Below, piece by piece: positions 30,601 through 33,600 of a stretch of DNA of 49,096 bases. This DNA comes from a virus (taxonomy: Duplodnaviria; Heunggongvirae; Uroviricota; Caudoviricetes). The number at the start of each line of letters is the position of its first letter. Position 1 is the first letter of the stretch. The stretch is from IMG/VR virus record IMGVR_UViG_2541047773_000006. One strand, given 5' to 3'. Position numbers: made by a program.

Positions 30601-33600
30601 GCCGGAGGTAACGGTTTTTGTATCGACAGTTTTGATATTCAGTTCGATAACAAACTCCAGACACAGCGTTGTATCGGGACTGGCTCGCCTTATGCAGGAG
30701 CAAATATTCCGACTACTTTTACACCGTCCGGTACGGTGACGCTTTCATGGTCTAAAGCCGCGTGGGAAATCTGGAGTAAAACACTGACTGGAGAAACAGT
30801 TCCGTTCAGCTTCACGCTTTCGAATGGAGAGGGGGCATACACTTTCAGTTTCCCGAAGGTTCAGATGTCAGGTGAATGGCCTGATGGGGGTAATACCGAC
30901 ATTATCCAGGTTCAATTGAGCATTACCGCAGCAGATGAAGCACCTACGATAACCAGAAAAAAAGCCTCCCCGGCTGCCGTGATCGCAAAAGCCAGTGCTG
31001 AGGCGATTAGTTGATTTTCCGTTATTCCCCCTGTGGTACTGCACTACAGGGGGGCGCATTGAATGAGGTTATGGATGTTTATTCTTAATCAGAAAATTAT
31101 CATCGGTGGTGAACGCTGGTTTACCCCAATGAAGGACTTAAAACCTGTAGACGGGTTAAAACTGTTGGTGGCAAGCAGCGATAACGATCAGTATCGCTCC
31201 CGTAATGCATTAATCCGTCGCCACATTGAGAAAATGGATGCCAGTTTGCACGTCGGAACGAAGGAGTTTGATATTGCAAAGGTTTCCGAGGTGGATTCTG
31301 TTGATGATTTACTCATTGATAATGCTGCTCGTTATCTGCTGAAAGACTGGAAAGGGGTTGGTGAACTGGTTGATGGTGTTGAGGTTGCACTGGAATATAC
31401 GCCAGAACGAGGGATCGCGCTGCTTAAGCAGAATCCGGAGTTGTACTGGCAGATCCTTGCAGAAGCAGCCAGCATCGCCCAGGGTAAAGAGCAGCAGAAG
31501 CAGGATACGATAAAAAAGCCATAGCCGCCCAGCGGTGGTTATCGGAGTTCGGGGGAGAAAAGGGTGAAAAGGCAAGATGGAAGCGAGAAAAACTCAGGTT
31601 GCCACCGATACCGGAACCAGAAATAGACCCGGTGCTTAAGGAATTGTTGTACGCCTATTCGGTAATATCCCGTGCCCGACGTTATGCTGGAATGACTGGG
31701 GTGCCTTTGCCTTTATCTCTGACAGAGATAAATGAATATTTAGCCACTCATCCGGTATTGATTGAGCGCGATGAATTTGAAGCAGTGATCTTTGCACTGG
31801 ATGACCAGTATTTTCAGGAGCAGTGTGTGTAGTTGTTAATTACGTACACTCTGTTACAGAGATGTGATGGTGTCTTTAATTAAATCGATGATGCTCCTGG
31901 AGAAAAGCATTGCGTGGCCTCGTAATCGCTATATCTACTATTATGTCGCCTGAAACCCACTTCGGTGGGTTTTTTGTTGTCAGGAGTTTTAATGAATGGC
32001 AGAGCAAACCTCGCGTCTCGCAATAATTATTGATAGCACTGGAGCGAAAAATAATGCTGACAATCTGGCCTCCTCATTAGTCAAAATGACGCAGGCTGGG
32101 GAAACTGCTGCAAATAGCGCAGGGAAAGTGACTAAGGCAACAGAAGATGAGAAGAACGCGCTCGCAAAATTAAAAGCAGCTATTGATCCAGTTGGTGCCG
32201 CAATTGATACTGTCGGTCGACGCTATTCTGAATTAAAGAAATTTTTCGATAAAGGGCTTATTGATAAAGAAGAATATGAATTTCTTGTCCGTAAACTTAA
32301 TGAAACCACAGAGGAATTGAGCGGGGTTGCGCAAGCGCAGAGAGAAGCCGAGAAGGCCGGAAAACTTGCTGCCGCCCAGCAGGAAGCGCAGGCTCAGGTC
32401 TTTCAAAGAATGCTGGACAAGATCGACCCTCTGGCTGCGGCGCTAAGAAATCTTGAACAACAGCAGGATGAACTTAATGCTGCGTTTGCATCCGGGAAAA
32501 TAAATGGTTCTCAGTTTGAGAATTATAGCCGAAAAATACAGGAAACACGGCGAGAGCTTACCGGAGAGGCTCAGGCAGAGCGAGAAGCAGCAAAAGCACA
32601 TGATGAACAGGTTGCTGCTTTGCAACGTCTGATTGCTCAACTTGATCCTGTCGGAACTGCTTTTAATCGTCTGGTAGAACAACAGAAACAGCTCAATGAA
32701 GCAAAAGCTAAGGGGATGCTTTCTCCTGAAATGTATGAGGAGCTTTCTGGAAAACTTCGTGCTATGCGGAGTGAGCTTGAGGTTACTCAATCGCAATTAA
32801 GCAAAACCGGAATGTCGGCAAAACAAACGGCTTTTGCTATGCGCATGTTGCCTGCACAAATGACGGATATTGTTGTTGGGTTGTCCACTGGTCAGTCGCC
32901 ATTTATGGTGTTAATGCAGCAGGGCGGCCAGCTAAAAGATATGTTCGGTGGGATTGGCCCGGCGATCAAAGGTGTAGGTTCTTATGTGCTGGGATTAATT
33001 AATCCTTTTACCCTGGCCGCAGCAGCCGTTGGCGTCTTAGGGCTGGCTTACTATAAAGGCTCTCAGGAGCAGGACGAATTTAATAAATCTCTTATTCTTA
33101 CCGGAAATCAGTTGGGGACAACCAGCGGGCAATTGGCCGATATAGCTCAACGTGCCGGGAATGCGGCTGATTCGACAACTGGCGCTGCGGCGGCAGTATT
33201 AAACCAGCTTGTGCGTTCGGGAAAGGTAGCGAGCAGTTCGCTGGAGCAAGTGACGACAGCGATAGTAAAAACGAGCGAAGTAACAGGAATATCAACCGAA
33301 CAACTGGTTAATGACTTCAATGAAATTGCAAAGGATCCTGTCAGTGCTATATCAAAACTTAATGATCAGTACCATTTTCTGACACTTGCGACTTATAACC
33401 AGATTAAGGCGCTACAGGATGAAGGGAACCAGCAGGAGGCCGCCCGCATTGCGACAGAAGCATACTCATCCTCAATGATCCAGCGCACCAACCAGATTAA
33501 AGAAAATCTTGGTTATCTTGAGACTGCATGGAAAGCTGTCGCAGACTCCGCAAAATGGGCATGGGATTCCATGCTGGATATTGGCCGTGAGGCCTCCCTT

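What the first reader, a model, noticed from the sequence alone, without database searches (positions are those of the whole stretch)
31500..31832. Canonical -1 frameshift site for the G/GT tail chaperone
The heptamer A-AAA-AAG (31512..31518) lies 6 nt before the G stop, and the -1 frame stays open for 105 codons to 31832. This matches the conserved G/GT frameshift of long-tailed phages.
Basis: partly seen in the sequence, partly recalled or inferred. Interest (0 to 1): 0.35.

Follow-up and report, generated by a model that had tools for sequence, protein, structure and literature searches.

The report
Phage tail-chaperone G/GT frameshift site
This is the ordinary, well-known "slippery" site that lets a prophage make a short and a long version of its tail-assembly chaperone from one gene pair; it is real and conserved, but public annotation of this prophage family misses it.

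Summary
In a Rac-like prophage of E. coli 042 (100% identical), the chaperone gene G (most likely 31075..31524) ends ATA AAA AAG CCA TAG. The heptamer A_AAA_AAG (31512..31518) is in the correct register. The -1 frame is open from 31488 to the stop at 31830..31832, giving 104 codons after the slip and a predicted 252-aa GT fusion. The gene pair sits between the tail tube gene and the tape measure gene.

The heptamer alone is not rare in the window (22 copies against 15.6 expected). The case rests on comparison. In 108 related loci from about 15 genera, T homology always lies in the -1 frame and starts at the slip site. The site is A_AAA_AAG in 94 loci and G_GGA_AAG, the lambda heptamer, at the same codons in 6. 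The G stop codon and the candidate T start codons move between loci. The 27 codons upstream of any start codon diverge mainly at third positions.

No conserved stimulatory RNA structure was found. G is named YdaY in RefSeq with a truncated start, and no GT fusion is annotated. Verdict: a routine new member of the lambda-type G/GT frameshift class, with low interest. The fusion protein itself has not been shown.

The parts
31075..31524 (+). Gene G: tail assembly chaperone, 149 aa (153 aa if started at ATG 31063). RefSeq calls it 'ydaY' and starts it at an internal TTG at 31165.
   Evidence: ORF. PHROG 313 'tail assembly chaperone' E 5e-47. AF2 model (pLDDT 79) matches predicted viral tail-assembly and tape-measure chaperones, E 7e-5. 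Start at 31075 is supported by SD GAGG and by a stop codon between the two ATGs in the L093 group.
31512..31518 (+). Slippery heptamer A_AAA_AAG, in register with G (P site AAA, A site AAG).
   Evidence: Present at the homologous codons in 94 of 108 related loci and replaced by G_GGA_AAG in 6. The Lys encoded by AAG is invariant in the G alignment.
31518..31832 (+). T segment: the -1 frame extension, 104 codons plus TAG stop, translated only after the slip.
   Evidence: PHROG 1189 E 1.7e-36 and a weak Pfam Phage_TAC_18 hit. tblastn homology in the -1 frame begins at residue 1-2 of the extension in Klebsiella, Erwinia and Pseudomonas phages. Substitutions are concentrated at third positions, including in codons 1-27, which lie upstream of any start codon.
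31075..31832 (+). Span of the predicted GT fusion (252 aa; junction ...QDTIKK|AIAAQRWLSEF...).
   Evidence: Conceptual translation. Matches PHROG 313 positions 13-246 of 258. The exact sequence is absent from the 15-billion-protein collection.
31519..31545 (+). Local hairpin immediately 3' of the heptamer. Probably not a functional stimulator.
   Evidence: MFE -14.7 kcal/mol but z-score -0.94. It starts 0 nt from the shift site and is absent in Klebsiella, Citrobacter and Raoultella homologues.
30052..31014 (+). Tail tube (major tail) gene, immediately upstream; the expected partner of the T domain.
   Evidence: Pfam Phage_tube_2 E 1.6e-31. RefSeq 'phage tail tube protein'.
31996..35229 (+). 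Tape measure protein gene, immediately downstream; the expected partner of the G domain.
   Evidence: Pfam TMP_2 E 5.4e-82 and Tape_meas_lam_C E 1.9e-25. PHROG 24.

Best explanation
This is a programmed -1 ribosomal frameshift of the lambda G/GT type in the tail module of a Rac-like E. coli prophage.

Most ribosomes translate G (149 aa) and stop at TAG 31522. A minority slip back one base when AAA (31513-15) is in the P site and AAG (31516-18) is in the A site. Both tRNA-Lys then re-pair on AAA AAA (31512-17), and decoding resumes at GCC (31518). This adds 104 residues and gives a 252-aa GT protein.

By analogy with lambda, which is inference and not shown here, many copies of G and a few of GT coat the tape measure protein. 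The T domain recruits the tail tube protein, and neither chaperone ends up in the virion. The slip fixes the G:GT ratio, expected to leave GT at a few per cent of G.

Shown here: the sequence anatomy, the synteny, the family assignment, and evolutionary conservation of the site and of the -1 frame protein. Inferred: that slippage occurs, how efficient it is, and what the proteins bind.
For: - Anatomy: heptamer in register, a 37-nt overlap and 104 codons in the -1 frame.
- Synteny: tube gene, G, T, tape measure gene, then lambda-like M, L, K, I, J.
- Family: G is PHROG 313 'tail assembly chaperone'. The fused GT aligns over positions 13-246 of the 258-position profile with a higher score than G alone.
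- Fold: the AF2 model of G hits predicted viral tail-assembly and tape-measure chaperones (E 7e-5 to 1e-2, TM about 0.5). Several hits are 232-268 aa long, which is fusion size.
- An annotated relative: Acinetobacter phage TRS1 carries a joined (two-piece) chaperone CDS.
- Site conservation: in 108 loci, 35 distinct junction haplotypes from about 15 genera, T is in the -1 frame. The homologous codons read A_AAA_AAG (94 loci) or G_GGA_AAG (6). The third base of the preceding codon covaries with the next codon: GTA or ATA before AAA, GTG before GGA.
- What moves: the G stop lies 0, 3, 21, 60 or 75 nt after the heptamer, and the first possible T start lies 14 to 170 nt after the G stop. The site itself stays put.
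- Coding signal: the first 27 codons of the extension have no start codon upstream, yet differ at codon positions 1/2/3 in 141/128/261 of 459 comparisons.
Against: There is no experimental evidence here for the fusion protein or for the efficiency of the slip.

No conserved stimulatory element was found. The downstream hairpin is not significant and not conserved, and the AGGA motif 6 nt upstream is part of conserved Gln-Asp/Glu codons. I recall that lambda also needs no stimulator, but I did not check this.

There is no sequence similarity to lambda G or T and no match to any solved structure.

A few relatives carry non-canonical sites (C_GCA_AAG, G_GGG_AAG, G_GAA_AAG), so a perfect heptamer is not strictly required in this family.

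An internal start at TTG 31647, with a weak AAGGA 4 nt upstream, cannot be excluded as an additional source of a short T fragment.
Confidence: 0.9

Rival explanations
1. T is an independent small gene, translated from its own start (TTG 31599, GTG 31632 or TTG 31647), and the heptamer is there by chance.
For: Gene callers and depositors annotate a separate 61-77 aa 'hypothetical protein' here. AAAAAAG is not rare in the window. A weak AAGGA lies 4 nt before TTG 31647.
Against: No ATG exists, and different records use three different weak starts.

The first in-frame start lies anywhere from 14 to 170 nt after the G stop in relatives. Protein homology in the -1 frame nevertheless begins at the slip site. 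The 27 codons before the TTG show a coding-type substitution pattern.

The heptamer is kept or swapped for another slippery heptamer at the same codons.
Confidence: 0.04
2. The shift happens at the RNA level. RNA polymerase slips on the A6 run and makes transcripts with one A more or fewer, and these are translated normally into GT.
For: The site contains six consecutive A residues (31512..31517). Transcriptional slippage is used by some bacterial genes and mobile elements (PMC5009743).
Against: Bacterial transcriptional slippage is described for runs of about 9 A or T (PMC5009743); A6 is short.

Relatives have G_GGA_AAG, G_GAA_AAG or C_GCA_AAG at the same place, with runs of only 3-4 A, while keeping the X_XXY_YYZ or A_AAG tRNA re-pairing logic. 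That fits ribosomal slippage and not polymerase slippage.
Confidence: 0.03
3. This is a decaying prophage. G and T are the two halves of a once single gene broken by a frameshift mutation, or the region is no longer expressed, so the site has no present function.
For: The element belongs to the Rac family, which is a defective remnant in K-12. There G is N-terminally truncated and the tape measure gene is cut. A variant with G and T fused in frame by an upstream deletion exists (P0031).
Against: The same split arrangement with the same -1 relation is found across Escherichia, Salmonella, Klebsiella, Citrobacter, Serratia, Pantoea, Tatumella, Erwinia and Pseudomonas, including in isolated phages. 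A random mutation would not be shared in that way.

The prophage in this window has an intact head and tail module.
Confidence: 0.03

Closest known systems
Bacteriophage lambda G / G-T tail assembly chaperones (Levin, Hendrix and Casjens 1993; Xu, Hendrix and Duda 2004, 2013, 2014; as summarised in PMC5009743)
   Same: The gene pair lies between the major tail (tube) gene and the tape measure gene. T overlaps the 3' end of G in the -1 frame and has no start of its own. A slippery heptamer ending in A_AAG sits a few codons before the G stop. Sizes are similar: G 140 aa in lambda against 149 here, GT 279 against 252. Six relatives of this locus carry lambda's exact heptamer, G_GGA_AAG.
   Different: There is no detectable sequence similarity to lambda G or T (BLASTP best E 11). 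The heptamer is A_AAA_AAG, not G_GGA_AAG. The G stop begins 3 nt after the heptamer, against 15 nt in lambda. A 163-nt gap with a terminator-like hairpin separates T from the tape measure gene, whereas in lambda T and H overlap.
Acinetobacter phage vB_AbaS_TRS1 tail assembly chaperone pair TRS1_18 / TRS1_19 (annotated two-piece CDS)
   Same: The T segment is homologous (36% identity). The synteny is the same. The shift is -1 at the homologous Lys codon. The record carries a joined CDS.
   Different: The heptamer is G_GGA_AAG and lies 78 nt before the G stop. G is only about 20% identical.
E. coli dnaX frameshift cassette (A_AAA_AAG with an upstream Shine-Dalgarno-like element and a downstream stem-loop, about 50% efficiency)
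   Same: The heptamer is identical, and the same single tRNA-Lys (mnm5s2U34) makes AAG-to-AAA re-pairing favourable (PMC5009743).
   Different: There is no conserved downstream stem-loop. The SD-like AGGA is 6 nt upstream rather than about 10, and it lies in conserved codons. The expected efficiency is therefore low, not 50%. The frameshift product here is the longer protein, not the shorter one.
E. coli K-12 Rac prophage gene ydaY
   Same: It is the same gene family. The K-12 sequence is 98.5% identical from window position 31173 onward, with the heptamer and a 104-codon T frame intact.
   Different: The K-12 copy is an N-terminally truncated remnant next to a deletion junction. The window holds the full-length gene in an intact tail module.

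Membership tests
Lambda-type G/GT tail assembly chaperone with programmed -1 frameshift | The gene pair is located between the major tail (tube) gene and the tape measure gene. | tested here: met
   Tube 30052..31014 (Phage_tube_2, E 1.6e-31), G 31075..31524, T to 31832, tape measure 31996..35229 (TMP_2, E 5e-82).
Lambda-type G/GT tail assembly chaperone with programmed -1 frameshift | The downstream ORF overlaps the 3' end of the upstream ORF in the -1 frame and has no conserved start codon or ribosome-binding site of its own. | tested here: met
   The -1 frame is open from 31488 to 31832 and the overlap is 37 nt. There is no ATG. The first candidate starts differ between relatives and between annotations.
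Lambda-type G/GT tail assembly chaperone with programmed -1 frameshift | A slippery sequence lies in the correct register inside the overlap. | tested here: met
   A_AAA_AAG at 31512..31518, with zero-frame codons AAA AAG.
Lambda-type G/GT tail assembly chaperone with programmed -1 frameshift | The frameshift arrangement is conserved among diverged homologues. | tested here: met
   In 106 of 108 loci T is in the -1 frame with a shift-prone site at the homologous codons (A_AAA_AAG 94, G_GGA_AAG 6, variants ending in AAG 6). The extension shows a coding-type substitution pattern.
Lambda-type G/GT tail assembly chaperone with programmed -1 frameshift | The G protein belongs to a tail assembly chaperone family by sequence or fold. 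| tested here: met
   PHROG 313 E 5e-47. The AF2 model hits predicted viral tail-assembly and tape-measure chaperones at E 7e-5 and probability 1.0. There was no hit to solved structures and no NCBIfam hit.
Lambda-type G/GT tail assembly chaperone with programmed -1 frameshift | A GT fusion protein is produced at a low fixed ratio to G and is required for tail assembly. | not testable with these tools
   This needs proteomics, a frameshift reporter or genetics. The exact fusion sequence is absent from protein databases.
Lambda-type G/GT tail assembly chaperone with programmed -1 frameshift | The G domain binds the tape measure protein and the T domain binds the tail tube protein. | not testable with these tools
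   Inferred only, from lambda work summarised in PMC5009743.
Lambda gpG / gpT sequence families (direct homology to lambda proteins) | Detectable sequence similarity to lambda G or T. | tested here: not met
   BLASTP of this GT against lambda GT gives a best E of 11. This is analogous architecture, not demonstrable sequence homology.
dnaX-type stimulated frameshift cassette | A downstream stem-loop at a 5-9 nt spacing and an upstream SD-like element at about 10 nt, both conserved. | tested here: not met
   The hairpin at 31519..31545 has z -0.94, starts 0 nt from the site and is absent in relatives. AGGA lies 6 nt upstream inside conserved codons.

The most novel reading that the evidence does not exclude
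This family may tolerate several different shift sites at one fixed codon position: A_AAA_AAG, G_GGA_AAG, G_GAA_AAG, C_GCA_AAG followed directly by a stop, and G_GGG_AAG. If so, the essential element would be single tRNA-Lys slippage on A_AAG, with the P-site codon only tuning the G:GT ratio. The E. coli lineage might have added its own 3' hairpin (31519..31545) to raise efficiency. That would make the family a natural series for studying how frameshift efficiency is set.
Probability: 0.12. Interest if true: 0.3.

Novelty: new member of a known kind. Interest (0 to 1): 0.15.

Why it matters
The scientific interest is small. The locus adds one more well-supported case to the conserved G/GT frameshift of long-tailed phages.

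The practical value lies in annotation. The same region is found in 1075 of 5426 complete E. coli genomes. In the RefSeq records I examined, G is labelled 'protein YdaY' with an N-terminally truncated start copied from the K-12 Rac remnant. T is missing or 'hypothetical', and no GT product is recorded. Re-annotating G as a tail assembly chaperone with ribosomal slippage would correct many records.

The alternation of two classic heptamers at the same codons is also a clean illustration of selection acting on a shift site.

Tried and rejected
- Heptamer frequency alone is not significant: 22 copies against 15.6 expected, so it was not used as evidence.
- A downstream stimulatory RNA structure was rejected. 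The hairpin in the window has z -0.94 and there is no counterpart in the Klebsiella, Citrobacter or Raoultella sequences.
- Rfam found no match in 30900..32100 at E up to 1.
- NCBIfam gave no hit for GT. In Pfam, only a sub-threshold Phage_TAC_18 hit on the T part (17.7 bits against a cut-off of 27).
- The PDB sequence search gave no hit at E up to 1. The PDB fold search gave nothing below E about 1, so similarity to solved tail chaperone structures could not be shown.
- BLASTP against lambda GT showed no similarity.
It was repeated with 5 closer sequences.
- A second in-register heptamer, A_AAA_AAA at the end of the tail tube gene (30957..30963), was considered as a possible tube-extension frameshift. 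It was rejected because the -1 frame runs only 12 codons.
- Two of the 108 loci could not be resolved. L031 is a contig fragment with a +1 frame call. The other has the normal junction sequence but a frame call of 0, for which I suspect an indel upstream in G.
- A homology search and a structure prediction for the T domain were not run, because they would not change the verdict.

Full report
**1. What is in the sequence**

The window is 100% identical over the tested 1.2 kb to the chromosome of E. coli 042 (NC_017626.1). The region belongs to a Rac-like prophage with a P22-type capsid gene and a lambda-like tail module. The order is tail terminator, tail tube (30052..31014), G, T, tape measure (31996..35229), then homologues of lambda M, L, K, I and J.

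The G ORF reads ...GAT ACG ATA AAA AAG CCA TAG, with the stop at 31522..31524. AAAAAAG occupies 31512..31518 in the X_XXY_YYZ register. The -1 frame is open from 31488 to the TAG at 31830..31832. A slip on the heptamer therefore appends 104 residues, starting AIAAQRWLSEF...

The heptamer ends 3 nt before the stop codon begins, and there are 104 sense codons after the slip rather than 105.

The G start is most likely ATG 31075, which has GAGG 6 nt upstream, rather than ATG 31063. One group of relatives has a stop codon between the two ATGs, and homologues start at the equivalent of 31075. That makes G 149 aa and GT 252 aa.

**2. Is it more than chance?**

The heptamer by itself is not. It occurs 22 times in the window, against 15.6 +/- 3.6 in shuffles.

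The combination is unusual. Among 94 in-register XXXYYYZ heptamers in all ORFs of at least 100 aa on both strands, the median -1 extension is 8 codons, and only four reach 100 or more. I traced two of the other three. One lies in a spurious ORF inside the capsid gene. The other is an ordinary ATGA-coupled downstream gene with its own ATG. The third, AAACCCG at 21890, was not followed up.

**3. Comparative evidence**

This is the decisive part. Searches with G and with the -1 frame extension found relatives in three kinds of source:
- phages of Escherichia, Salmonella, Klebsiella, Erwinia, Pseudomonas and Acinetobacter;
- prophages of Shigella, Citrobacter, Raoultella, Siccibacter, Pectobacterium, Serratia, Pantoea, Tatumella and Dryocola;
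- 80 viral contigs.

In 108 loci, which give 35 distinct junction sequences, the T homology is in the -1 frame relative to G in all but two unresolved cases. It begins at residue 1 or 2 of the extension, that is, at the slip site.

The homologous codons read as follows:

| Site | Loci | Where |
|---|---|---|
| A_AAA_AAG | 94 | Escherichia, Shigella, Salmonella phage, Klebsiella, Citrobacter, Siccibacter, Dryocola, Flyfo siphovirus, viral contigs |
| G_GGA_AAG | 6 | Raoultella, Serratia, Pantoea (2), Tatumella (2) |
| G_GAA_AAG | 4 | Pseudomonas phiPSA1 group |
| C_GCA_AAG followed by TAA | 1 | Erwinia phage Gungnir39 |
| G_GGG_AAG | 1 | Pectobacterium |

The Lys encoded by AAG is one of only eight invariant columns in an alignment that goes down to 20% identity.

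The third base of the preceding codon covaries with the next codon. It is GTA or ATA before AAA, and GTG before GGA. That is what selection on tRNA re-pairing predicts; selection on the protein alone would not predict it.

The G stop, by contrast, lies 0, 3, 21, 60 or 75 nt after the site. The first possible start codon in the T frame lies 14 to 170 nt after the G stop.

The first 27 codons of the extension (31518..31598) have no start codon upstream. They still differ from 17 relatives mostly at third positions: 141, 128 and 261 differences at codon positions 1, 2 and 3 over 459 codon comparisons. They encode a conserved motif, A[IL]xAQxWLxEFGGExGEKxxWxREKL. This stretch can only be translated by ribosomes arriving from G in the -1 frame.

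**4. Family assignment**

- G matches PHROG 313 'tail assembly chaperone' (E 5e-47). The fused GT matches positions 13-246 of that 258-position profile at 176.6 bits, against 161.6 for G alone. The family therefore appears to contain full-length fusions.
- The T part matches PHROG 1189 and, below threshold, Pfam Phage_TAC_18.
- Acinetobacter phage TRS1, whose T segment is 36% identical, carries a joined two-piece chaperone CDS.
- An AlphaFold2 model of G (pLDDT 79, pTM 0.72) matches predicted structures of viral tail-assembly and tape-measure chaperones. E values run from 7e-5 to 1e-2, probability is about 1.0 and TM about 0.5. Several hits are 232-268 aa long.
- Nothing in the PDB matches by sequence or by fold.
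- There is no sequence similarity to lambda G or GT. The literature describes the G-T frameshift as conserved 'despite low sequence similarity' (PMC5009743).

**5. Mechanism**

A_AAA_AAG is the dnaX shift site. With G_GGA_AAG and C_CCA_AAG it is among the most shift-prone heptamers in E. coli. The reason is that the single tRNA-Lys pairs more weakly with AAG than with AAA (PMC5009743).

I found no conserved stimulator. The hairpin directly 3' of the site (31519..31545, -14.7 kcal/mol) is no better than shuffled sequence (z -0.94). It starts with no spacer and has no counterpart in relatives. The AGGA 6 nt upstream lies in conserved Gln-Asp/Glu codons. Rfam finds nothing.

The expected outcome is therefore low-level frameshifting, as in lambda, where the G:GT ratio of about 30:1 is needed for tail assembly (PMC5009743). 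The binding roles, G to the tape measure and T to the tube protein, are inferred from lambda.

**6. Rival explanations**

- Independent initiation of T is contradicted by the lack of a conserved start and by the conservation of the pre-start codons.
- Transcriptional slippage is contradicted by the shortness of the A run. Bacterial cases involve runs of about 9, and relatives have G_GGA_AAG at the same place.
- A frameshift mutation in a decaying prophage is contradicted by the same split arrangement across many genera and in isolated phages.

**7. Status in databases**

The RefSeq records examined annotate G as 'ydaY: protein YdaY', starting at an internal TTG (31165). That start copies the 119-aa K-12 Rac remnant, whose homology begins at window position 31173, next to a deletion junction. 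T is absent or 'hypothetical', with three different starts. The exact GT fusion is not in the 15-billion-protein collection.

One variant, P0031, has G and T fused in frame by an upstream deletion.

The feature is therefore a new, unannotated member of a very well-known kind.

**8. Verdict**

Novelty and interest are low. What remains is experimental proof of the fusion protein and of its ratio to G.

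Noticed in passing
window 31063-31524; L003 (K-12 MG1655) 2993-3352: RefSeq 'protein YdaY' is this tail assembly chaperone. 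In K-12 it is an N-terminally truncated remnant at a Rac deletion junction (homology starts at window 31173). Its 119-aa length and internal TTG start (31165) are carried over to the intact prophages I examined; the region occurs in 1075 of 5426 complete E. coli genomes. K-12 still has the slip site and an intact 104-codon T frame.
   Followed up: partly
window 31949-31984: A strong terminator-like hairpin (GAAACCCAC-TTCG-GTGGGTTTT followed by TTGTTG; -15.8 kcal/mol, z -3.5) sits in the 163-nt gap between the T stop and the tape measure start, just before its SD. Similar hairpin-plus-T-run elements follow T in Erwinia phage Gungnir39 and in a Citrobacter prophage. This may be transcriptional attenuation between the chaperone and tape measure genes.
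   Followed up: partly
window 31026-31054: A 12-bp GC-rich hairpin (-21.3 kcal/mol, z -3.2) lies between the tail tube stop and the G start. Klebsiella, Citrobacter and Raoultella relatives have a hairpin plus T-run (gggcttttt) at the same place. This could be a terminator or attenuator that lowers G/GT expression relative to the tube protein.
   Followed up: partly
window 30957-30963: [quoted passage not shown] It is probably meaningless.
   Followed up: yes
P0031 (E. coli, 240 aa); P0033, P0035 (assembly-derived): One E. coli variant has G and T fused in a single frame by a deletion upstream of the slip site (...ILAEAGYDKKAIAAQRW...). It would make only GT and no G. Several other database 'proteins' in this family look like indel or assembly errors around the A run.
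   Followed up: partly
L025 (Pectobacterium) about 1920; L006 (Erwinia phage Gungnir39) 1986-1995; L010 (Pseudomonas phage phiPSA1) 434-440: Relatives have non-canonical shift sites at the homologous codons: G_GGG_AAG, C_GCA_AAG directly followed by TAA, and G_GAA_AAG. This suggests that A_AAG single-tRNA slippage may be enough in some lineages.
   Followed up: no
window 28863-28872: G_GGG_GGA lies at the end of ORF 28477..28872, with a 128-codon -1 extension. This is just the next head-tail gene, starting at ATG 28869 and overlapping the TGA stop (ATGA coupling). It is not a frameshift site.
   Followed up: yes
window 21885-22280 (heptamer at 21890): An in-register AAACCCG heptamer 2 codons into ORF 21885..22280 has a 138-codon -1 extension, one of only four in the window reaching 100 codons. 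I did not examine what the -1 frame encodes here.
   Followed up: no
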